A stretch of 10,888 nt of DNA from a virus (lineage: Duplodnaviria > Heunggongvirae > Uroviricota > Caudoviricetes), in the IMG/VR virus record IMGVR_UViG_2529293142_000034, positions 1-10,888 of that record. One strand, given 5' to 3'. A model generated the notes under the pieces. It saw nothing but the letters and a program-made list of their open reading frames with translations. It had not been told where the DNA came from and ran no database searches. Within the stretch, counting starts at the first letter, position 1. The number at the start of each line of letters is the position of its first letter. Shown here piece after piece: positions 1,362 through 10,888 of this stretch. The translations under genes were made by a program, and so were the position numbers.

Positions 1362-3657
1362 TTAAATTACTTCGACATTTTGATCATCATTAGCACTTTG
1401 CTGAACGTCGACATTAATGTCATCATCATTCGGCAGAGCCTTATAATATTCTCCCATCATCATTTTATAATGTGCAGCATTATCGCTGTATTCAAATATT
1501 TTCTGGAATATATTGAGATTTTTACTAACCGAGTTTTGGTCTAGAGCAATGTAAAGATCGTCATTTGAATGATGTGAACCGTCATTAATCCAAGATATCA
1601 ATGAATTAAATGCTATTTTTTCATCACCATCAAAATGTTTTTCGAGTTTCCATACATTAAATCCACCTAAAATTTTAAAGTAATTTTCAAGAATTCTTCT
1701 CATTGTGTTTTGTACTGTTGTGCAATTAATATCAGGGCGCCTTATCTCACTCCATAGTAAATCATATGAAGTTTTAATTGGATTGCATGCATGGCTTTCA
1801 ATGAACGATAATTTATCCTTTTTCCTAATGACCCAAAATGTTTCATCAGGACGAGCAGTATCTAAATTTCTATTCATATCGAAAGTTAACTCTTTATGAA
1901 AATAAATATTGTGAGTTAGGAAAAAGACCTGTTTTATACGGCCATTATTGTCTCTAATGTCTTTTATAAGTTTTTTCATTAATGAGCTAACTATAAACAG
2001 AATATCACTATCTAAACTTGATATAGGATCATCAAAGACAACTACTCGATCGTTCATTACACCAGATGTTGAATTACTTCCTTTGATGAGATTATAGAAA
2101 TATAGGAATGTGATAAAAGTTTTCTCACCCTCACTGAGTGTGCTTAGGGCATTATCACCATTTTCACGTACGATTCTATAGCTAAACGAATCGGATGTCG
2201 GTGCAAGGCTAAAATTTTTGAAGCCAAATGATAAAAGTATCTTATTTATAGCAGTGATTGTTGGCGTGACACTGGTTCTTTTAGATTCCTCGCTGGATAT
2301 ATTTTCAATGATATCATCTAATCTGACTTTGTCTTTTTCTAAACCCTTAATTAACCCTTCCTTAGCTCTATTTAACTGTTCCTTATCAGTATTATATTTA
2401 TTTATTTTATCAGCCAGTTCAACTTTAACTATATAATGCCATATTTCTTTTGTTAGTTTTTCTCTTTCCATGCTCCTGTTTTTGTATAGTTCATTATTTT
2501 CAAAAACTTGATTGTTAGCTGCAAGAATGATGTCTAATAATTCTTTGCCAGGCTCTAGAAGTCCTGTCATAGCGACAGGTGTACTTAATTCAGCCAATTT
2601 TCTTTTTGCTTCATCTATATTCCTTGATAATATTGATAGAATTAATTTGGATTTTGTGTTAAACAAATCCAAATCAAGGAAGGCATAGTTCCCTTCATTT
2701 ATTTTCGCAACATATTCATCAAATAAACGATACTCATGAGTATAATTTTTTAGTAATACATTAATGCTTTCTGTTTTTTCTAAATATTTTGTGTCAAAGT
2801 AACTTTCTAAATCCGATTTCAAACTACTGGGCGTATTTTGTTGGCAAAATGGACATTTGGTTTCAAGGTTATCATAGTACTTTATCCCTTCTTTAACCCA
2901 GTCACTGTTATCTAGTTGCCTTATGATTTCGGCAACGCTTGCATCTTCTTTTCCAAGAATTTTCTCTTTCCATATTTCATCGTCAACTATTTTTTTATGT
3001 TGCTAAAATTTGGTAAGGGAATTATATTGTGAACTGTTAGCGAGTCTGAGTAAACACTACCAGCCTTCGATATTAAGTATGGTAACTGGTGTAAATCTAC
3101 TTCTTTTGAATATAGCTCCTCTAATACCTTTGATTTGAATTTTTCCTGGCTGCTTCTTAAACCTTCAAATGCTTTATAGAAGTAATCATCATGTTTTTCT
3201 TTTGATTCCAGCAATCATTTTTGAAATCCAATTCAATTTTTTCAAGTTTTTGATAGATACCTAAATTTGCATTATCATTGTTATTTAAATTTCTTTTCTT
3301 GGAATCTATTGAGCTTTGCTCTTTATCCCTTTGTTGTATCAATTTGTCTATGTTATCTGTGAGCTCTTTTGTTTCTTCACCTAAAGTAAAAATACCTTTA
3401 ATACTATCTCCAGAAAAATTATTTACAACAAAATCCCTGTTGTAGACATAAGGAGTTAATTGATTGTTGTTTTTCCATTTAATCTGGCAAGTTGGAAAGC
3501 CTAAAGCATTATGAATTATTTTGCTAATTGTAGTTTTTCCAGCACCATTTGAGCCATATATGTAATTGATTTTCATTAGAGGCATCATATATTGAACGTC
3601 ATTTCCATATGAACCGGCTTGAGAAACGCTTATAGACTCTATCATTATCTTTTTCAT
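1362..3657 (-). CDS. Cargo gene: RloC/PrrC-like ABC-type ATPase with central CPFC motif and C-terminal putative nuclease domain (about 765 aa when joined); interrupted in this sequence by two homopolymer frameshifts
   Basis: Three adjacent minus-strand ORFs (3157-3657, 2987-3214, 1362-2822) join into one frame if one base is added at the T5 run 3194-3198 and at the T7 run 2990-2996. Walker A YGSNGAGKTT is at 3535-3558; reading the 1362-2822 frame upstream of its TTG start gives ...KYYDNLETKCPFCQQNTPSS (CPFC at 2844-2855). Signature-like LSEGEK, Walker B/D-loop VVVFDDPISSLD (about 2025-2045) and H-loop FFLTHN follow. Family assignment (AAA_13 / RloC-PrrC-like) is from motif recall, not a search. 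Confidence 0.7.
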
Positions 3658-4063: not shown

Positions 4064-4635
4064 TTACACTGACTGACGTGATGCCAGTTGCGCACTTTTA
4101 CGCGAAAAAATCATGTTCTGCGCAGGGGTGAATTTTTCACGGCTGTCATCCACCGAAGCCGCGTCAGGCCTGAATCCGATGGTCGTTAAAATGTCGCTAT
4201 CCTGTGCGGAATAATTAATTTTTCCCCCTTCGCAAGCCAGGACAGAAGGGCTTCACGCAGGGCATCTGTGGCACGCTGTATGGCACAGTTTCGGGCAATG
4301 GCCGTCAGCTCACTGTATCCCATCAGCTCCGGTGCCAGTGCCGCCGCCAGTGCTGTGCCGTGCTGCTGCATAAAATCATTCAGCCGGTCGCGGATGCTGA
4401 TGTGCTGAACGGCTTCATGCGAACGAATATAACGACCGGCGGCCTGATTCACCTGCCATTTTCTGACTTCGATAATATTGCGTAATTCGTCCAGGCGACT
4501 GACGTTTCTGCCTTCCCCGGACAGAAGCCGCAGATATTCCTGTTCGGCCGCAGCCAGCTCATTTTTGCGTTGCAGCCATGCTGCTTTGTTATTCTGACAG
4601 GTGTCAAAGGCCTGCTGTAAGGCTGTGCTTTCCAT
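4064..4635 (-). CDS. psu: Psu polarity-suppression / capsid-decoration protein (190 aa after a one-base correction); C-terminus out of frame here because of a homopolymer indel
   Basis: ORF 4186-4635 (149 aa) ends ...LSWLAKGEKLIIPHRIATF*. The adjacent frame reads KINYSAQDSDILTTIGFRPDAASVDDSREKFTPAQNMIFSRKSAQLASRQSV* to a stop at 4064-4066. The join needs one extra T in the T5 run 4219-4223 and gives 139+51 = 190 aa, the length of P4 Psu as I recall it. Confidence 0.85.
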
Positions 4636-4707
4636 CGTTATCTCTTTCTCATCATGCTGAAGAATAAAATACGGTGTGCGGCGACGGCCGGTGTTAACCG
4701 GCAGCCC

Positions 4708-5208
4708 TCATTCCAGACGCAGCGAATATGATTGTGTTTTTAAGCGTACTGGCGGCAGTTCCTGTTTTTCATGCAGGCTTTCTGCCAGTTCGTCCGGCGT
4801 GACCGGGCGGACAATGAAACGGTTGATGGTCTGAAGCGTTTTAAACACCAGACCACAGCCCGGATCCGTGCACACATAAAAACGCTCGGTGACTTCCTGA
4901 GACAGACGCCTCGATGTTCTTGACAGTGCAAGGCCTTTACATCTCCGACAACAATATCCGGTAACAAGCATTCTTTTCGGGCGTTTCATACTGCCGGAGG
5001 CTGACGTCAGTGAATCGCGGTATCTCTGTTTGCCTGAAATGTATTCCATTCCTGAATCTTTACTGTCAGAGAAAAAGCTTTCACTCGCTTCAAATGTCGC
5101 AGAGCAATAAATATTCCGGCACTGTGCAATCATTATCTTGGTGCCATCGTCCATGAAATGTGCGCGGCGGGTGTGAGCAACATGTCCACACGACGGGCAG
5201 TAAATCAT
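4708..5208 (-). CDS. delta: Delta late-gene transcription activator with two tandem Ogr-type zinc-finger domains (166 aa)
   Basis: Intact 166-aa ORF with two C-x2-C-x22-C-x4-C modules (CPSCGHVAHTRRAHFMDDGTKIMIAQCRNIYC and CCRRCKGLALSRTSRRLSQEVTERFYVCTDPGC). Its ATG (5208-5206) overlaps the sid stop as ATGA. Confidence 0.9.
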   Translation of the reverse strand: MIYCPSCGHVAHTRRAHFMDDGTKIMIAQCRNIYCSATFEASESFFSDSKDSGMEYISGKQRYRDSLTSASGSMKRPKRMLVTGYCCRRCKGLALSRTSRRLSQEVTERFYVCTDPGCGLVFKTLQTINRFIVRPVTPDELAESLHEKQELPPVRLKTQSYSLRLE

Positions 5209-5938
5209 GACAGCAGTCCTCTGGCCTTAAGCTCTGCTCCCTGCTGGTCTATTTTGTCCTGCCACACCTTGCGCTGTGCCGGTGTGCCTGCCACCTCATA
5301 ATCCATGTGCGGGAGTGTTGCCGCTGACAGTCCGGTCAGCCGGAGAACCGGCTCACCGGTGAGGCTGATTTGCATCTGTTTTATTTTCTGTTCCAGCGAT
5401 GATTTCACCTGCTGCATGACAGCCTTTTCCGGTGCGACGTAGCCCTGATGGCCGGTGGCGTTGGCGAGCGGATTTTCCTGTACCAGAATGCTCAGATGCA
5501 TTGCCCGGACAAGCGCCTCACAGGTTTCATTCAGGGCGTGTTCCAGCTCATGCTCTGCATACAGACTCAGCAGGTGATGATGTGCCTTCCGGTAGGCGGT
5601 GGCCGTGCTGTCACACGCCCCTTTCAGGCGTTCACGTTCAAAATTCAGCACCACGGCCAGATTGTCATATTCCTGTACCAGCTCCCGGCGTGCCACGCGC
5701 TCAATGTGGCGCTGTTTCAGCTCGTCGCTCAGGACACCACCGGCTGCACGAAAGGCTGTGCGCCAGTCATCAGCGTCATTTCCGTCGGCCTGCGCCAGCG
5801 CATTTTTTCCTGCTCTGCCCGTTCAATGGCCTTGACGGTCTCATCCATCAGTCGGGCGTTCTCAAGGTGGGCGGCTCTGGCCTTTTCCAGTTGTGCCAGT
5901 GCGGGTTGCAGATATTCAGGGATGGTGTTGTCAGACAT
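5205..5938 (-). CDS. sid: Sid capsid size-determination (external scaffold) protein (244 aa after a one-base correction); split in this sequence by a homopolymer indel
   Basis: ORFs 5729-5956 and 5205-5696 join if one T is added to the T6 run 5803-5808: ...AIERAEQEK + NALAQADGNDADDWRTAFRAAGGVLSDELKQRHIER + VARRELV.... Starting from ATG 5938 (GAGGAG Shine-Dalgarno 7 nt upstream) gives 45+36+163 = 244 aa, the P4 Sid length as I recall it. Confidence 0.85.
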
Positions 5939-5972
5939 TTTCCGGCTCCTCGTCACTTCAGGTTAAGAAAAT

Positions 5973-6028
5973 TGTGACGTACACCGGACAACAACACGAC
6001 GCATTGCAGATGTGCCAGTCCTGACACA
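5973..6028 (-). promoter_or_regulatory. Candidate late promoter for sid-delta-psu with two TGT-N12-ACA activator sites of the Ogr/Delta type, centres 38 bp apart
   Basis: TGT-N12-ACA read at 5973-5990 and 6011-6028. If the distal site is centred near -55, the start of transcription falls about 5964 and the proximal site near -18, leaving a roughly 25-nt leader before sid ATG 5938. The -55/-18 arrangement is recalled for P4 late promoters. Confidence 0.55.
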
Positions 6029-6106
6029 GGAGACTCATCCTCAGACCGGCAAGCCAGGAAAAGGTCGCAGGAAAAACCGGCTTACTGTTTGTTTTTTTAT
6101 ATTTTA

Positions 6107-6220
6107 CTGTTCACCTCTGTTCACCATAAGAAAAAAGATAAGTAATACAGTAAGTTAAAGGGTGAACAATCGCAGTAATGACTGTTCACCGTCTGTTCAC
6201 CACTGTTCACCCGTTCATGG
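6107..6220. repeat. Phased 9-mer repeats CTGTTCACC (five direct copies, one inverted, one degenerate) in the divergent control region between sid and alpA
   Basis: Direct copies at 6107-6115, 6117-6125, 6182-6190, 6193-6201 and 6203-6211 (10-11 bp spacing within each cluster); inverted copy GGTGAACAA at 6161-6169; degenerate CGTTCATGG at 6212-6220. Existence is certain; function is inferred. Confidence 0.8.
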
Positions 6221-6295
6221 ACTTTTTGTGCTGTTTATTACTTTTTATTTTTATTAATTAACTGAAATAAATAAGAAAAACAATTTGTATTTCAC

Positions 6296-6301
6296 TATAA
6301 T
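6296..6301 (+). promoter_or_regulatory. Consensus -10 hexamer TATAAT facing alpA; candidate early promoter element
   Basis: TATAAT at 6296-6301 in an AT-rich stretch; no convincing -35 at 17 bp spacing, so this is weak. Confidence 0.25.
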
Positions 6302-6490
6302 TTTTTCCAGCTCCTTCCAGAGCGTTTTTAAAAGCTATCTGGCGCTGATGTGCAAAAAACACACAGCCATTGTAAGGCTGCCGGAACAAATCCCCCCTGT
6401 TGCGTCTGCCAAAAATATTCACAAAATAAAGCGCTACCCCGAAGCCGGACGGACTTATCCGGTGCTGTATGGACATTACGAGGTAGCCCG

Positions 6491-6760
6491 ATGCTAAGCC
6501 TGTTTTTTCTCCCCGTCTCCTGCCCCTGTGACGCCACTGATGCCGCTGCCGGACATCACGCAGGTAGCGTTTTTTTACGCTGCCGGAAGTGATGCACCTG
6601 TGCGGCCTGTCACGCTCGACCATCTATGAACTCATCCGTAAGGGGGAATTTCCGCCGCAGGTGAGTCTTGGCGGTAAAAAATGTGGCCTGGCTGCACTCT
6701 GAAATCACCGCATGGATGGCCGGGCGCATTGCCGGACGCAAACGGGGGTACGACGCATGA
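6491..6760 (+). CDS. alpA: AlpA-family (Vis/excisionase-like) helix-turn-helix regulator; reading frame broken twice at homopolymers in this sequence
   Basis: Core at 6580-6702 reads [34 protein letters not shown]...; removing one A from the A6 run 6676-6681 continues as ...[29 protein letters not shown] (stop 6758-6760), a close fit to the AlpA-family pattern. No in-frame start precedes the core unless one T is added to the T7 run 6570-6576, which joins it to ATG 6491 (GAGG 7 nt upstream). N-terminal boundary is uncertain. Confidence 0.65.
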
Positions 6761-7158
6761 TGATGCCCGCTCTGCAAAAAGTCCCTTTTTCTGGCTTGCC
6801 TTTTTCCGGCATTTGCGGATATAGTTTTTCTGCTGCCGCAAAATCGGCAGCCGGGCGTGGAAACCCGAGCAATTCACAGGCGGCATATGACGCGCCATGC
6901 GTCTTTTTTTGTGTCGCAATCAACGCCACAGAGCGCCAGATTATGGTGTGGTGTGTGGTCAGTCGTGCAGATGGCATTCCGTGCATCCTGCCCGCGTCCG
7001 CTCATTATGCCGCAGAGTCAATGGTAGCTCAGGCGGGGCAGCCTCCGGGCTGGCCGGTATCCTGTGAAGCCGGTATTTCCACCCCCGTCTGGGCTATCGC
7101 CATCGAGCGTGGAAACTCCGGCGATAGCGTTATTTGCTATTCACAGGAGGCTGCCATC

Positions 7159-7356
7159 ATGGCTACAACCCTCACCCCCTCACACCCTGAATTTGTCTTT
7201 GTGTTTGCGGCTGTCCGTCGCGCAGACCGTCATCCCCGTATCTGCATGCTTCGCACCGTCGCCGGTGATGAACGCAGTGCCCGCCGTTCCCTTGTCCGTG
7301 ACTATGTGCTCTCCCTTGCTGCCCGTCTGCCGGTGGTGGAGGTGTCCCGTGCGTAA
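7159..7356 (+). CDS. Small early protein (65 aa), possibly an Icd-like cell-division inhibitor
   Basis: ATG 7159 preceded by AGGAGG at 7145-7150 (8-nt spacer); sequence [65 protein letters not shown]. The stop overlaps the next gene start. The Icd-like label is from weak recall of prophage annotations. The same frame is open upstream to 6757, so the true start could lie further upstream. Confidence 0.4.
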
Positions 7357-7636
7357 TAAAAAAGCCCCTCAGACCGTCTCAGCGCGTCATGACGCCCGTG
7401 AACACCTCAGCATTGAGGCTTACCATAAGCTCAACCGCGCCAGCGCCGTATCCCAGTTTGTTGGGGGTGATTTGATTCACCGTGAACTCTCCGGCCTGCA
7501 TCAGCTCTACATTCCGCATATTTTCAGCTACCTGAATGAAGATATTGATTTTGTGCTGAATGAGCTGAAAGCCAAAGGCCTGTGCCGCGATTTTCTCGCC
7601 CAGCAGAAAGACCGGGGAGACAGGACGCATGTTTGA
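7349..7636 (+). CDS. Small early protein (95 aa), possibly the epsilon (derepression) homologue
   Basis: GTG 7349 with GGAGG at 7338-7342; no in-frame ATG exists downstream, so the GTG start is required. It overlaps the upstream stop (GTGCGTAA) and the downstream start (ATGTTTGA). The epsilon assignment is by position and size only. Confidence 0.5.
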
Positions 7637-8084
7637 TTTTCCCCAGCCCGGTGAGATTTACCGTTCTGCCGGTTTTCCCGATGTGGCCGTGGTCGGCATT
7701 CTGGAAGACGGTATTCCGTGGGAAATGCCGTACCGCTGCCCGGACATTGTCTGGAACCCGTACCGCCGTAAATTCAGTATCCTTGTGCGTATCCTCGCTG
7801 ACGGGCGCACCACAGACATCCCGCTGGGGCGTTTTCTGCGGGAATTTACCTGTGACCGTCCTGACCTGTTTAAACGCAGCCCCGTAAACCGGCATGCGGT
7901 ACTGAAAGAAATGGCCGGAGACCCGGAATTACAGAAATGGCGGGAGAAATATCTGGATATTTACCCGCAGGCCCCTGTTCCGGTCAGCCGGGCGGCACCG
8001 GTGGCGCGGGAATGGCGGGAAATTCCCCGCACGGAGCCTGACCCGGAAATCACCCCGGATAACAGTTACCGCAATTATCTGTAA
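7629..8084 (+). CDS. Conserved early-operon protein, 151 aa (orf151-like)
   Basis: Intact ORF whose ATG overlaps the stop of the preceding gene; its size and position before alpha match the P4 left-operon layout as I recall it. Function unknown. Confidence 0.65.
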   Translation: MFDFPQPGEIYRSAGFPDVAVVGILEDGIPWEMPYRCPDIVWNPYRRKFSILVRILADGRTTDIPLGRFLREFTCDRPDLFKRSPVNRHAVLKEMAGDPELQKWREKYLDIYPQAPVPVSRAAPVAREWREIPRTEPDPEITPDNSYRNYL

Positions 8085-8219
8085 TTAAAAAACGACCCCC
8101 GAAAAATTAAATGTGCGTATTCGCGCAGGGATACGCACGTCTTCAGGAGACGCAGATATGCCTTATCAGTTAATGCAACCGGCACGGAATGCAGTCATCT
8201 GTCACAGGGAGGAAAACAA

Positions 8220-8540
8220 ATGAAAACACCCTTACCGCCCGTCTTACGCGCTGCCCTTTACCGTCGCGCTGTCGCCTGTGCCTGGCTGACCGTGTGCGAA
8301 CGTCAGCACCGCTACCCGCATCTCACCCTTGAGTCACTGGAGGCGGCCATCGCCGCTGAGCTGGAAGGCTTTTATCTGCGCCAGCACGGTGAGGAAAAAG
8401 GGCGTCAGATAGCCTGTGCCCTGCTGGAAGATTTAATGGAATCCGGCCCCCTGAAGGCCGCGCCGTCGCTGTCCTTTCTCGGGCTGGTTGTGATGGATGA
8501 ACTCTGTGCCCGTCACATAAAAGCGCCGGTACTGCACTGA
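8220..8540 (+). CDS. Conserved early-operon protein, 106 aa (orf106-like)
   Basis: Intact ORF with GGGAGG upstream of ATG 8220; it ends 14 bp before the alpha start. Function unknown. Confidence 0.65.
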
Positions 8541-8554
8541 AGGAGAACAACACC

Positions 8555-10888
8555 ATGAAAATGAACGTAACCGCCACCGTCAGCCATGCACTCGGCCACT
8601 GGCCGCGTATCCTCCCGGCGCTGGGGATTCAGGTGCTGAAGAACCGTCATCAGCCCTGTCCGGTCTGTGGCGGGAGTGACCGCTTCCGTTTTGATGACAG
8701 GGAGGGGCGCGGCACCTGGTACTGCAATCAGTGTGGTGCCGGTGACGGCCTGAAACTGGTTGAAAAGGTGTTTGGTGTTTCCCCGTCCGATGCGGCCGCA
8801 AAGGTGGCTGCCGTGACCGGCAGCCTGCCCCCGGCTGACCCGGCAGTGACGGCTGCCGCCGGTGCTGAAACAGACGCTGCCCGGAAGAACGCCGCCGCAC
8901 TGGCACAAACCCTGATGGCGAAAACCCGTCCCGGAACCGGTAACGCCTACCTGACCCGCAAGGGCTTTCCCGGCCGGGAATGCCGGATGCTGACCGGCAC
9001 ACACAGAGCCGGTGGCGTGAGCTGGCGTGCCGGTGACCTTGTGGTGCCACTGTATGACGACAGCGGCGAACTGGTTAACCTTCAGTTAATCAGTGCTGAC
9101 GGCCGTAAGCGCACCCTGAAAGGCGGACAGGTCAGGGGCACCTGTCACACCCTTGAAGGACAGAATCAGGCCGGAAAACGTCTGTGGATAGCGGAGGGAT
9201 ACGCGACCGCACTTACCGTGCATCACCTGACCGGTGAAACGGTGATGGTGGCGCTTTCTTCCGTGAATCTCCTTTCTCTGGCCAGCCTTGCCCGGCAGAA
9301 GCATCCGGCCTGTCAGATTGTCCTTGCTGCTGACCGTGACCTCAGCGGTGACGGCCAGAAAAAAGCCGCCGCAGCCGCAGATGCGTGTGAAGGTGTTGTT
9401 GCCCTGCCGCCGGTCTTCGGTGACTGGAATGATGCCTTCACGCAGTACGGCGGGGAAGCCACCCGTAAGGCCATTTATGATGCCATCCGGCCACCGGCTG
9501 AAAGCCCGTTCGACACCATGAGCGAAGCGGAGTTTTCCGCCATGAGTACCAGCGAAAAGGCCATGCGTATCTATGAGCATTACGGCGAGGCGCTCGCGGT
9601 CGATGCCAACGGCCAGCTTCTGTCCCGCTATGAAAATGGTGTCTGGAAGGTGCTGCCGCCACAGGACTTTGCCCGGGATGTGGCCGGGCTGTTTCAGCGT
9701 CTGCGCGCGCCGTTCTCCTCCGGGAAGGTGGCCTCCGTGGTGGACACCCTGAAGCTGATTATTCCGCAGCAGGAAGCCCCCTCCCGCCGCCTGATTGGCT
9801 TTCGTAACGGCGTGCTCGACACGCAGAACGGCACGTTCCACCCGCACAGTCCGTCACACTGGATGCGCACCCTGTGTGATGTGGATTTCACCCCGCCAGT
9901 GGAAGGGGAAACGCTGGAAACCCACGCCCCCGCGTTCTGGCGCTGGCTTGACCGTGCCGCCGGTGGCCGTGCGGAAAAACGCGACGTGATTCTGGCCGCA
10001 CTGTTTATGGTGCTGGCAAACCGCTACGACTGGCAGCTCTTTCTGGAGGTGACCGGTCCCGGCGGCAGCGGCAAAAGTATCATGGCCGAAATAGCCACCC
10101 TGCTGGCCGGGGAGGATAACGCCACATCGGCCACCATTGAGACGCTGGAATCCCCGCGTGAACGTGCCGCGTTAACTGGCTTCTCACTGATACGCCTGCC
10201 GGACCAGGAAAAATGGAGCGGCGACGGTGCCGGACTCAAGGCCATCACCGGCGGCGATGCGGTGTCCGTTGACCCGAAATACCGGGATGCGTACTCCACG
10301 CACATCCCGGCGGTGATTCTGGCCGTGAACAATAACCCGATGCGCTTCACCGACCGCAGCGGCGGCGTGTCACGCCGGCGGGTGATTATTCACTTCCCTG
10401 AACAGATAGCCCCGCAGGAGCGCGACCCGCAGCTTAAGGACAAAATCACCCGCGAGCTGGCGGTCATCGTGCGTCACCTGATGCAGAAATTCAGCGACCC
10501 GATGCTCGCCCGGTCACTGCTTCAGTCCCAGCAAAACTCAGACGAGGCGCTGAACATCAAACGGGATGCCGACCCGACGTTTGATTTTATCGGCTATCTG
10601 GAAACCCTGCCGCAGACCAGCGGCATGTATATGGGGAACGCCAGTATCATCCCGCGCAATTACCGTAAATACCTCTATCACGCCTATCTGGCCTACATGG
10701 AGGCAAACGGCTACCGGAACGTACTCAGTCTGAAAATGTTCGGGCTGGGGCTGCCGGTGATGCTGAAGGAATACGGACTGAATTACGAGAAGCGCCATAC
10801 CAAACAGGGGATACAGACCAACCTGACGCTGAAAGAGGAAAGCTACGGCGACTGGCTGCCAAAATGTGACGACCCTGCAACAACCTGA
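8555..10888 (+). CDS. alpha: Alpha protein: P4-type primase/helicase (zinc finger + Toprim primase + D5-like NTPase), 777 aa, complete
   Basis: AGGAG 9 nt upstream of ATG 8555. N-terminal zinc-binding motif CPVCGGSDRFRFDD...CNQCG, Toprim-like acidic region (EGYATAL ... LAADRDLSGDG) and Walker A GPGGSGKS at 10055-10078. The 777-aa length equals that of P4 alpha as I recall it. Confidence 0.93.
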   Translation: MKMNVTATVSHALGHWPRILPALGIQVLKNRHQPCPVCGGSDRFRFDDREGRGTWYCNQCGAGDGLKLVEKVFGVSPSDAAAKVAAVTGSLPPADPAVTAAAGAETDAARKNAAALAQTLMAKTRPGTGNAYLTRKGFPGRECRMLTGTHRAGGVSWRAGDLVVPLYDDSGELVNLQLISADGRKRTLKGGQVRGTCHTLEGQNQAGKRLWIAEGYATALTVHHLTGETVMVALSSVNLLSLASLARQKHPACQIVLAADRDLSGDGQKKAAAAADACEGVVALPPVFGDWNDAFTQYGGEATRKAIYDAIRPPAESPFDTMSEAEFSAMSTSEKAMRIYEHYGEALAVDANGQLLSRYENGVWKVLPPQDFARDVAGLFQRLRAPFSSGKVASVVDTLKLIIPQQEAPSRRLIGFRNGVLDTQNGTFHPHSPSHWMRTLCDVDFTPPVEGETLETHAPAFWRWLDRAAGGRAEKRDVILAALFMVLANRYDWQLFLEVTGPGGSGKSIMAEIATLLAGEDNATSATIETLESPRERAALTGFSLIRLPDQEKWSGDGAGLKAITGGDAVSVDPKYRDAYSTHIPAVILAVNNNPMRFTDRSGGVSRRRVIIHFPEQIAPQERDPQLKDKITRELAVIVRHLMQKFSDPMLARSLLQSQQNSDEALNIKRDADPTFDFIGYLETLPQTSGMYMGNASIIPRNYRKYLYHAYLAYMEANGYRNVLSLKMFGLGLPVMLKEYGLNYEKRHTKQGIQTNLTLKEESYGDWLPKCDDPATT

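What the first reader, a model, noticed from the sequence alone, without database searches (positions are those of the whole stretch)
6757..7158. Unassigned 400 bp between alpA and the small early gene: open frame starting ATGATGATG on the alpA stop, low-complexity translation
A frame starting with three consecutive ATG codons overlaps the alpA stop (GCATGATGATG) and stays open into the 7159 gene, but its translation is Ala/Gly/Pro/Ser-rich and does not look like a folded protein. In P4 the equivalent position holds the immunity RNA and small genes such as kil. This stretch may hide a small RNA, a frameshifted gene, or an N-terminal extension of the downstream protein.
Basis: inference. Interest (0 to 1): 0.35.

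Follow-up and report, generated by a model that had tools for sequence, protein, structure and literature searches.

The report
Phage P4 RNA immunity region, eta/kil
The "unassigned" 400 bp is the well-studied immunity region of satellite phage P4: a promoter, two small regulatory RNAs (the seqA/IsrK-like leader and the CI/C4 antisense RNA) and their target sites, all lying inside the long reading frame eta, whose last 65 codons are the kil gene. It is real but already known.

Summary
ATGATGATG (6757-6765) overlaps the TGA at 6758-6760, and the frame stays open through the ATG at 7159 to a stop ending at 7356 (199 codons).

The stretch is not unassigned. Window 6500-7700 is 97.8% identical to phage P4 itself, with no indels between 6757 and 7356. 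The ORF is P4 eta (three start codons, 197-199 aa). Its last 65 codons are kil, an Icd-like protein.

Inside eta lie:
- the PLE promoter (6796-6825);
- an IsrK/seqA-type leader RNA with intrinsic terminator t1 (6832-6909);
- the C4/CI immunity RNA (7017-7104);
- the seqC target covering the kil ribosome-binding site (7140-7155).

All three Rfam families score above their gathering thresholds. In 21 sequences (this window, P4 and 19 related loci) from Escherichia, Klebsiella, Kluyvera, Pantoea, Erwinia and Mixta, the CI loops and both target sites co-vary three ways.

The eta frame is always open and every length difference is a multiple of 3. The 134 eta-specific codons nevertheless show no codon periodicity, with dN/dS of 0.6-1.5 against about 0.3 in kil. 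This fits the published model: ribosome transit through eta, not its peptide sequence, prevents Rho-dependent termination of late-promoter transcripts, while CI RNA shuts down PLE transcripts.

Verdict: already known, low interest.

The parts
6371..6388 (+). TGT-N12-ACA motif, the likely Delta/Ogr activator site of the late promoter PLL. It lies about 400 nt upstream of PLE. Transcripts starting here carry vis and the full eta frame.
   Evidence: Motif found at 6371. Its assignment to PLL rests on my memory of the P4/P2 late-promoter consensus and on the roughly 400-nt PLL-PLE spacing in Forti 1999; it is an inference.
6492..6760 (+). vis/alpA (P4 ORF88, excisionase and regulator). In this window it is frame-broken by private indels. 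Its ancestral stop TGA 6758-6760 overlaps the eta start codons.
   Evidence: P4 annotation and alignments. Indels at 6495, 6510, 6565, 6570, 6580 and 6676 against E. coli L65. No intact ORF across it.
6757..7356 (+). eta reading frame: 199 codons with three consecutive ATGs at 6757-6765. It contains everything listed below and ends as kil.
   Evidence: No indels against P4 across this frame. Annotated as one CDS in RefSeq E. coli. Open in 20 sequences (this window and 19 related loci) with all indels multiples of 3. Literature summary in PMC10111431.
6796..6825 (+). PLE promoter (TTGCCT, 18-nt spacer, TATAGT), internal to eta. Transcription should start near 6832.
   Evidence: It is the only sigma-70-like site in 6200-7700. 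It is identical in P4, and a -10 is annotated at the corresponding place in X02534. The IsrK model starts at 6832.
6832..6909 (+). Leader RNA carrying seqA (IsrK family). It has two 5' hairpins, a single-stranded box and the intrinsic terminator t1 (stem 6889-6903 followed by a U run).
   Evidence: Rfam RF01394, 74.9 bits against a gathering score of 50; RF03163 c4-a1b1 at 6819-6871, 49 bits against 46.7. Terminator scan. 4 pairs with compensatory changes in 22 sequences. IsrK is equated with P4 seqA in PMC3632133 and PMC4825925.
6857..6880 (+). seqA target boxes: box A GTGGAAA (6857-6863) and box B TTCACAGG (6873-6880), both complementary to CI RNA.
   Evidence: Exact complementarity. Three-way covariation in 21 sequences.
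6910..7016 (+). Variable spacer between t1 and CI. It is translated as part of eta and serves as the 5' leader from which CI is processed.
   Evidence: It is the most divergent segment. The IsrK-start to C4-start distance across it falls in three classes (185, 176 and 140 nt), all in phase.
7017..7104 (+). cI gene, encoding the CI immunity RNA (C4 antisense RNA family). The paired core is about 7022-7099. The seqB boxes lie at 7037-7046, 7060-7068 and 7076-7082.
   Evidence: Rfam RF01695, 76.6 bits against a gathering score of 45. MFE -49.3 kcal/mol in the same fold. 28 pairs, 4 with compensatory changes. Differs from P4 CI at only 2 nt, both in box A.
7093..7141 (+). Hairpin (stem arms 7093-7101 and 7120-7128, loop carrying box A) followed by a U-rich tail. 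It is a candidate for the terminator t4 described between cI and timm.
   Evidence: 9-nt complementarity and a fold of -18.9 kcal/mol. The identification with t4 is an inference from my memory of Briani et al. 2000.
7109..7155 (+). seqC target: box A GTGGAAA (7109-7115) and box B TTCACAGGAGGCTGCC (7140-7155). Box B covers the kil Shine-Dalgarno sequence AGGAGG.
7159..7356 (+). kil: a 65-aa Icd-like cell-division inhibitor. It is the first gene translated from PLE transcripts and forms the C-terminal part of eta.
   Evidence: NCBIfam NF033153, 76.1 bits against a cutoff of 25. Coding signature present: pos3/pos1,2 ratio 2.2-2.3 and dN/dS about 0.3.
7349..7636 (+). epsilon (helper derepression protein), the next gene. 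Its GTG start overlaps the kil stop.
   Evidence: Pfam PF25738, 170 bits. P4 annotation.

Best explanation
This is the immunity and early-control region of a P4-type satellite prophage. It differs from the P4 type sequence by a few substitutions.

Two overlapping layers share the same DNA.

Layer 1, RNA. The constitutive promoter PLE (6796-6825) lies inside the eta frame. It makes a leader RNA that carries seqA and the intrinsic terminator t1 (6832-6909). Read-through transcripts continue into cI (7017-7104) and are processed to the stable, cloverleaf-like CI RNA. Exposed segments of CI pair with seqA upstream and with seqC downstream. seqC (7109-7155) overlaps the kil ribosome-binding site. 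Pairing blocks kil translation and causes premature termination at t1, t4 and the Rho-dependent timm inside kil. As a result, the replication genes downstream (epsilon, the alpha primase) stay off in the lysogen.

Layer 2, translation. Transcripts from the activator-dependent late promoter PLL, upstream of vis/alpA, carry the eta start codons (6757-6765), which overlap the vis stop. Ribosomes translating eta run across seqA, cI and seqC and on through kil. This makes the late transcripts insensitive to immunity and prevents Rho-dependent termination.

What is shown here: identity to P4; the RNA family matches and their structures; CI-target complementarity with three-way covariation; conservation of an open, in-phase frame without protein-level constraint in its first 134 codons; and the coding signature of kil.

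What is taken from the literature or inferred: processing of CI, Rho dependence, the positions of t4 and timm, PLL activation, and the killing activity of Kil.
For: Identity to P4: window 6500-7700 is 97.8% identical to P4 (NC_001609 7824-9023, minus strand). There are no indels from 6757 to 7356.

RNA families: C4 scores 76.6 bits (gathering score 45), isrK 74.9 (50) and c4-a1b1 49 (46.7). The same isrK plus C4 pair appears in all 20 related loci scanned. Compensatory pairs occur in both structures.

CI-target pairing: CI 7076-7082 pairs with GTGGAAA at 6857-6863 and at 7109-7115. CI 7060-7068 together with 7037-7046 pairs with TTCACAGG(AGGCTGCC) at 6873-6880 and at 7140-7155, over the kil SD. 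Across 21 sequences there are 4 box-A and about 10 box-B variants. CI and both targets change together apart from single-base differences in three loci (a G-U wobble in L011, one base in L013, one base at each target in L023).

kil: Icd-like, 76 bits.

eta frame: zero stops in frame 0 in 20 sequences (this window and 19 loci), against 1-8 stops in each other frame. All spacing classes are congruent mod 3 (75/69/51, 185/176/140, 142/139).

Coding signature: codon-position ratio is 0.6-1.2 in the eta-specific segments and 2.2-2.3 in kil. dN/dS is 0.57-1.53 against 0.27-0.30.

Literature: PMC10111431 summarises Forti 1999 (promoter internal to eta; CI and seqA; Kil as truncated Eta; eta translationally coupled to the alpA homologue; Eta translation prevents termination). 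PMC4825925 and PMC3632133 equate IsrK with seqA and C4 with CI and describe CI-dependent termination through seqA and seqC.
Against: Nothing contradicts the assignment, but several caveats apply.
- The primary P4 papers (Forti 1999, Sabbattini 1995, Briani 2000) could not be read here. Details such as t4, timm and RNase P processing rest on secondary summaries and my memory.
- The promoter match is a consensus hit no better than chance in number: 1 found against 1.2 expected.
- In this copy vis/alpA is frame-broken. The vis-eta translational coupling described for P4 may therefore not operate, and the element may be partly decayed or the sequence imperfect.
- Box A of CI and of both targets differs from P4, so cross-immunity with P4 is untested.
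- No expression data are available.
Confidence: 0.93

Rival explanations
1. The 134 eta-specific residues form a genuine protein domain (Pfam 'Ash' family, placed by some authors in the Bro network) with its own biochemical function, such as a regulator. On this view the ORF is conserved because the protein matters, not merely because it must be translated.
For: Pfam PF10554 Phage_ASH matches at 83-92 bits against a cutoff of 26. The ORF is intact across several genera. RefSeq names it as a protein. PMC10111431 treats eta as a Bro-network gene.
Against: There is no third-position excess (ratio 0.6-1.2) and dN/dS is 0.57-1.53 in all five eta-specific segments, while kil in the same alignment shows 2.2-2.3 and about 0.3. 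The conserved 'peptide' blocks coincide exactly with the IsrK and C4 RNAs. The variable 'residues' are the co-varying antisense boxes. The spacer differs by 45 nt and is barely alignable between groups. The composition is 45% A/G/P/S. The Pfam model spans about 6820-7195, which is the RNA region itself.
Confidence: 0.12
2. The long open frame is an accident of G+C-rich, structured RNA genes. Only the RNAs and kil are functional, and the region upstream of 7159 is never usefully translated.
For: No protein-level constraint in the first 134 codons. The old 'ash/cI protein' annotation in this same frame was superseded when P4 immunity was shown to be RNA-based.
Against: Frame 0 has no stop in 20 sequences, against 1-8 stops in the other frames. 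At least five independent length changes are all multiples of 3. The start overlaps the upstream gene's stop (ATGA or similar) in most loci. Only 0.7% of shuffles are open. Published nonsense-mutant and suppression data, cited through, show that eta translation prevents termination.
Confidence: 0.04
3. The stretch is the remnant of a frameshifted or decayed gene.
For: Neighbouring genes in this window (vis, psu, sid, the AAA_13 cargo gene) do carry frame-breaking indels.
Against: From 6757 to 7356 there is not one indel relative to P4 or to E. coli L65, and the frame is intact.
Confidence: 0.01

Closest known systems
Bacteriophage P4 immunity region (PLE - seqA/t1 - cI - seqC - kil, nested in eta; Deho, Ghisotti, Forti and colleagues, 1992-2002)
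   Same: It is essentially the same sequence: 97.8% identical with no indels in eta. It has the same three ATG starts overlapping the vis stop, the same 65-aa kil, the same CI RNA apart from 2 nt, and the same promoter and terminator t1.
   Different: Box A of CI and of both targets reads GTGGAAA rather than P4's GTGAGAA, a coordinated 2-nt change at three sites. This may alter immunity specificity. The upstream vis/alpA is frame-broken in this copy. The cargo between int and psu differs from P4.
immI operon of phages P1 and P7 (c4 antisense RNA - icd - ant)
   Same: A C4-family RNA is processed from the transcript it regulates. It has upstream (a1/b1) and downstream (a2/b2) target sites, the downstream one covering the RBS of an Icd-type small gene. 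Repression of translation leads to transcription termination. P1-like phages (RCS47, D6, JL22) match window 7013-7198 at 69-72%.
   Different: In P1 the regulated product downstream is an antirepressor (Ant). Here it is the satellite's replication operon. As far as I recall, P1 has no eta-like long frame or second upstream promoter that overrides immunity by translation.
Gifsy-1 IsrK - orf45 (STnc1160) - anrP locus of Salmonella, and the CB RNA systems of N15-like phages
   Same: The IsrK family leader with an intrinsic terminator exists in short and read-through isoforms and is followed by a C4-like processed RNA. phiKO2 and PY54 match the CI segment.
   Different: In Gifsy-1 the short IsrK acts in trans as an activator of translation of the long isoform. 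Its output is an antirepressor-like protein and an antiterminator, not a replication operon.

Membership tests
P4-type RNA immunity module (seqA - cI - seqC - kil within eta) | CI RNA: C4-family cloverleaf-like RNA between promoter and first translated gene | tested here: met
   RF01695 scores 76.6 bits against a gathering score of 45 at 7017-7104. Consensus fold has 28 pairs, 4 of them compensatory.
P4-type RNA immunity module (seqA - cI - seqC - kil within eta) | Two target sites complementary to CI, one upstream (seqA) and one downstream (seqC) | tested here: met
   Exact 7-10-nt complementarities lie at 6857-6880 and 7109-7155. Three-way covariation is seen in 21 sequences.
P4-type RNA immunity module (seqA - cI - seqC - kil within eta) | seqA carried on an IsrK-type leader ending in intrinsic terminator t1 | tested here: met
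   RF01394 scores 74.9 bits against 50. Terminator hairpin at 6889-6903 followed by T7.
P4-type RNA immunity module (seqA - cI - seqC - kil within eta) | 65-aa kil (Icd-like) as first translated gene, with its RBS inside seqC | tested here: met
   NF033153 scores 76.1 bits. AGGAGG at 7145-7150 lies within box B.
P4-type RNA immunity module (seqA - cI - seqC - kil within eta) | eta: a long frame starting upstream of PLE with three candidate ATGs, in frame with kil | tested here: met
   6757-7356, 199 codons. Conserved and in phase in relatives.
P4-type RNA immunity module (seqA - cI - seqC - kil within eta) | eta start translationally coupled to an intact upstream vis/alpA | tested here: not met
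   The start-stop overlap is present (6757-6760), but vis is frame-broken in this window by indels at 6495-6676. It is intact in P4 and in E. coli L65.
P4-type RNA immunity module (seqA - cI - seqC - kil within eta) | CI produced by processing (RNase P and others); CI-dependent termination at t1, t4 and the Rho-dependent timm; eta translation prevents termination | not testable with these tools
   Known only from the literature (and my memory of Forti 1999 and Briani 2000).
Pfam PF10554 Phage_ASH ('Ash protein family') | Score above the Pfam gathering threshold | tested here: met
   83.2 bits for 6757-7158 and 92.5 bits for 6712-7356, against a cutoff of 26.
Pfam PF10554 Phage_ASH ('Ash protein family') | Behaves as a protein under purifying selection (third-position excess, dN/dS below 1) | tested here: not met
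   pos3/pos1,2 ratio is 0.6-1.2 and dN/dS is 0.57-1.53, against 2.2-2.3 and about 0.3 in kil.
P1/P7 immI (c4 - icd - ant) | C4 RNA plus an Icd-like gene whose RBS is a C4 target | tested here: met
P1/P7 immI (c4 - icd - ant) | Antirepressor gene (ant) translationally coupled downstream of icd | tested here: not met
   The downstream genes are epsilon (Pfam Derepression family), ORF151, DUF5375 and the primase.

The most novel reading that the evidence does not exclude
The eta-specific 134 codons may be a 'ribosome track'. On this reading, selection keeps them stop-free and in phase so that ribosomes can override RNA immunity and Rho, but their amino-acid sequence is free to drift.

The apparent protein conservation behind Pfam PF10554 and the names 'ash family protein' and 'transcriptional repressor' would then be a shadow of two overlapping RNA genes.

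The variable 'residues' would be two independently assorting antisense specificity boxes. At least 4 box-A and about 10 box-B types are seen, reassorted even among E. coli copies whose eta regions are otherwise about 91-99% identical. They would define a combinatorial immunity code for P4-like satellites.
Probability: 0.55. Interest if true: 0.3.

Novelty: already known. Interest (0 to 1): 0.1.

Why it matters
Little changes for biology. This is the textbook P4 immunity switch, present in about a fifth of complete E. coli genomes (1008 of 5426).

Its practical value is for annotation:
- A reader or pipeline that sees only 'alpA, gap, small gene' misses two RNA genes, a promoter, up to three terminators and a nested long ORF.
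- Public records still label the frame 'transcriptional repressor' or 'ash family protein'.
- PGAP sometimes splits the frame into a pseudogene although it is open.

Two modest additions could seed a small comparative study: the codon-level evidence that the eta-specific part is constrained only to stay open, and the table of co-varying specificity boxes.

Tried and rejected
- RNAduplex scanning of CI against the transcript gave long, loop-ridden duplexes that ignore CI's own fold and was uninformative. I replaced it with a search for exact antiparallel runs.
- I tried to read the primary papers (Forti 1999 by DOI and as PMC94026; Sabbattini 1995 as PMC176756). None are held, so I relied on open-access papers that summarise them.
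- Minus-strand ORFs 6632-6919 and 6705-6986, and the alternative + frames 6857-7027 and 6897-7067, match no Pfam family. They are treated as spurious.
- The weak Rfam hit BaMV_CRE on the minus strand (15 bits against a gathering score of 100, E 1.9) is noise.
- 'Frameshifted gene' is rejected from the indel-free alignments.
- Structure prediction of Eta was not run. Only a single-sequence job would have been accepted, and a low-confidence model would not discriminate between explanations.
- Large protein-database searches were not used, because the identification did not depend on them.
- My first automated 'kil ATG' finder sometimes picked an earlier in-frame ATG (spacings 127 and 124). The alignment shows that the true kil ATG column is conserved.

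Full report
**1. The observation**

The sequence reads GCATGATGATG at 6755-6765. ATGATGATG occupies 6757-6765, and TGA at 6758-6760 ends the C-terminal frame of AlpA/Vis. The frame starting at 6757 has no stop before the ATG at 7159 and continues to a stop ending at 7356, giving 199 codons. The mechanical ORF list reports it as 6712..7356, 214 aa.

The other two + frames carry 3 and 4 stops in 6757-7158. Only 0.7% of mononucleotide shuffles of the 402 nt stay open. The first 134 residues are 45% Ala/Gly/Pro/Ser, against 29% for the last 65.

**2. What the stretch is**

A distant BLAST of 6500-7700 against phage records hits satellite phage P4 itself. Identity is 97.8% over the full length (NC_001609 7824-9023, minus strand; also X51522 and X02534). 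The pairwise alignment shows substitutions only, with no indels, from 6757 to 7356.

P4 records annotate a 137-aa 'ash' or 'cI gene product' CDS, which RefSeq calls 'transcriptional repressor'. It lies in the same frame, starting at the internal ATG near 6943. RefSeq E. coli genomes annotate the whole 196-199-aa frame as one CDS named 'host cell division inhibitor Icd-like protein'. That CDS overlaps the stop of the upstream helix-turn-helix regulator by 4 nt.

The 65-aa product of 7159-7356 matches NCBIfam NF033153 (Icd-like) at 76 bits. The translation of 6757-7158 matches Pfam PF10554 'Ash protein family' at 83 bits. The next gene (7349-7636) is the P4 epsilon 'Derepression' family.

An open-access paper summarises the primary work (Forti et al. 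1999, J Bacteriol 181:5225). A constitutive promoter lies inside eta. Its transcript is terminated early through RNA interactions at CI and seqA and is processed to the CI immunity RNA. Kil is a truncated form of Eta. Full-length Eta is translated only from an upstream late promoter and is translationally coupled to the alpA homologue. Eta translation prevents termination (PMC10111431).

From memory of the Forti abstract, which I could not re-read: kil encodes 65 aa, and 'three likely start codons predict 197-199 aa' for Eta.

**3. The RNA layer**

Rfam covariance models give three hits above their gathering scores, all on the + strand:
- c4-a1b1 (RF03163) at 6819-6871: 49 bits against 46.7.
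- isrK (RF01394) at 6832-6909: 74.9 bits against 50.
- C4 antisense RNA (RF01695) at 7017-7104: 76.6 bits against 45.

Two papers state that IsrK and C4 are the structural homologues of what the P4 literature calls seqA and CI RNA. They also state that CI causes premature termination by pairing with seqA upstream and seqC downstream (PMC3632133; PMC4825925).

The only sigma-70-like site in 6200-7700 is TTGCCT, an 18-nt spacer, then TATAGT at 6796-6825. This places the start near 6832, where the IsrK model begins. The only + strand terminator-like site is the hairpin 6889-6903 followed by a T run. I take it to be the t1 terminator described between PLE and cI (from memory of Briani et al. 2000).

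An exact-complement search found these pairings:
- CI 7076-7082 (UUUCCAC) pairs with GTGGAAA at 6857-6863 and again at 7109-7115. I call this box A.
- CI 7060-7068 (UCCUGUGAA) pairs with TTCACAGG at 6873-6880 and at 7140-7148. I call this box B.
- CI 7037-7046 extends the downstream pairing to 7155, so the duplex covers the kil Shine-Dalgarno sequence (AGGAGG, 7145-7150).

A further hairpin (stem arms 7093-7101 and 7120-7128, -18.9 kcal/mol, with a U-rich tail) is a candidate for terminator t4. This is an inference.

**4. Comparative evidence**

A scan of one genome per species recovered 22 related loci. They come from Escherichia-like MAGs, Klebsiella, Pseudescherichia, Atlantibacter, Kluyvera, Mangrovibacter, Pantoea, Erwinia, Mixta and Apirhabdus, with Eta identity from 98% down to 48%. 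All 20 loci scanned carry isrK followed by C4 on the same strand.

RNAalifold on 22 sequences reproduces the C4 fold: 28 pairs, 4 with changes on both sides, none systematically broken. It also reproduces the IsrK fold: 16 pairs, 4 compensatory.

The antisense boxes co-vary three ways:
- Box A appears as GTGGAAA, GTGAGAA, GTAGGAA or TTTGCAG. It is identical in seqA, in the complement of CI, and in seqC in every locus.
- Box B appears in about ten versions, including TTCACAGG, GTTATCGG, TCCATCG, TCTAACGG, CTTATTGG, CTTCAAGG, AACTATGG, CTCAATGG, AACCTTGG and AACAAAGG. It is matched at all three sites apart from single-base differences in three loci (a G-U wobble in L011, one base in L013, one base at each target in L023).

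E. coli copies whose eta regions are otherwise about 91-99% identical to this window carry different combinations of boxes. The window differs from P4 only in box A, by a coordinated 2-nt change at all three sites. This is the expected signature of a functioning antisense immunity system with diversifying specificity. As I recall, the concept was established for P4 versus phiR73.

**5. The translation layer**

The eta frame is open from a start at or overlapping the upstream gene's stop through kil in the window, in P4 and in 19 of the 22 related loci. Of the other three loci, L021 has a 1-nt deletion. L003 is broken near its 3' end on a short MAG contig. L022 covers only the C-terminal part.

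Frame 0 has no stops, whereas the other frames have 1-8 each. All distance classes keep the phase, so every length change is a multiple of 3:
- start to IsrK: 75, 69 or 51 nt;
- IsrK to C4: 185, 176 or 140 nt;
- C4 to the kil ATG: 142 or 139 nt.

The eta-specific part nevertheless shows no protein-coding signature. Mean pairwise differences at codon position 3, relative to positions 1 and 2, are 0.6-1.2 in the five eta-specific segments and 2.2-2.3 in kil. Nei-Gojobori dN/dS is 0.57-1.53 against 0.27-0.30. The protein-guided alignment, if anything, biases these values downward.

The conserved 'peptide' blocks ([23 protein letters not shown]) are the translations of the IsrK and C4 stems. The variable 'residues' are the boxes. 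The simplest reading is that selection keeps the frame translatable rather than preserving a protein fold. This agrees with the published finding, cited through, that translation of eta is what prevents termination.

It suggests that Pfam PF10554 mainly reflects RNA-level conservation. That last point is my inference, not an established result.

**6. Mechanism**

In the lysogen, PLE fires constitutively. CI RNA is processed from its own transcript and pairs with seqA and seqC on nascent transcripts. This stops them at t1, t4 and timm and occludes the kil RBS, so kil, epsilon and the alpha primase stay silent.

On activation of the late promoter PLL, transcripts include vis and the eta start. 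A TGT-N12-ACA activator-type motif lies at 6371-6388, about 400 nt upstream (its assignment to PLL is an inference). Ribosomes then traverse the whole leader, and the operon becomes immune-insensitive.

Shown here: the parts, their complementarity and covariation, and the frame conservation. Taken from the literature or inferred: RNA processing, Rho dependence, the terminator assignments, and the Kil phenotype.

**7. This particular copy**

Relative to P4 and to E. coli L65, the window has private indels in vis/alpA at 6495, 6510, 6565, 6570, 6580 and 6676. These break its frame. Of the 18 indels against L65 between 4100 and 10888, 14 lie in 6260-6680 and none lie beyond 6680. No complete E. 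coli genome exceeds 97.2% identity over 6230-6770.

psu (149 aa against 190) and sid (split) carry single-base deletions in T runs. The AAA_13 cargo gene is split into pieces. Either the element is decaying or the sequence is error-prone in places.

The immunity region itself is intact. vis-eta coupling, however, may not work in this copy.

**8. Verdict**

The feature is real and functional, but it is the classical P4 immunity/eta-kil region and so is already known. Its refutation criterion (a conserved ORF) is met without refuting the RNA reading, because the RNA genes and the ORF overlap.

Interest is low. The only mildly new points are the codon-level evidence that the eta-specific part is a translated but unconstrained track, and the catalogue of co-varying specificity boxes.

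Noticed in passing
window 6492-6760 (indels at 6495, 6510, 6565, 6570, 6580, 6676); cluster 6260-6680: vis/alpA is frame-broken here, whereas it is an intact 88-aa gene in P4 and in E. coli L65. Of 18 indels against L65 over 4100-10888, 14 fall in 6260-6680 (ori, PLL and vis). No complete E. coli genome exceeds 97.2% identity over 6230-6770. This is either real decay or local sequencing error.
   Followed up: partly
window 4186-4635 (psu), 5205-5956 (sid): psu is truncated to 149 aa (190 in relatives) by a 1-nt deletion in a T run at 4219. sid is split into 163-aa and 75-aa ORFs by a 1-nt deletion in a T run at 5803.
   Followed up: partly
window 1362-3657, minus strand: The cargo between int and psu, which is the P4 defence hotspot, is an AAA_13 (PF13166) ATPase gene split into pieces. 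ORF 3157-3657 covers model positions 3-142, and ORF 1362-2822 covers positions 270-713. A 75-aa ORF (2987-3214), in a different frame from ORF 1362-2822, lies in the gap between them. It is probably a frameshifted anti-phage gene. E. coli L65 carries a different cargo at the same place, an ATP-dependent nuclease plus a UvrD helicase.
   Followed up: partly
L025-L029 and L004 (E. coli and relatives), aligned to window 6757-7356: Copies 91-99% identical to this window carry different combinations of antisense box A (GTGGAAA, GTGAGAA, GTAGGAA) and box B (TTCACAGG, TCTAACGG, GTTATCGG, CTTCAAGG), always matched at seqA, CI and seqC. This suggests modular reassortment of immunity specificity.
   Followed up: partly
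L026 (E. coli Ec-FL1-1X) 413-1012: PGAP annotates an 'ash family protein' pseudogene plus a separate 65-aa Icd-like CDS, although the 184-codon eta frame is open from 458 to 1012. RefSeq P4 still names the internal 137-aa frame 'transcriptional repressor'. Both are legacy or inconsistent annotations.
   Followed up: yes
window 6371-6388: TGTAAGGCTGCCGGAACA fits the TGT-N12-ACA activator-site pattern of P2/P4 late promoters (recalled from memory). It lies about 400 nt upstream of PLE, where PLL is expected.
   Followed up: no
window 6910-7016, against the short-spacer loci (L008-L011, L013-L020, L023, L024, L026): The spacer between terminator t1 and CI comes in a long form (IsrK-to-C4 distance 185 or 176 nt) and a form 45 nt shorter (140 nt). 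The two forms share almost no sequence, yet both keep the eta frame open. What the extra 45 nt does, if anything, is unknown.
   Followed up: no
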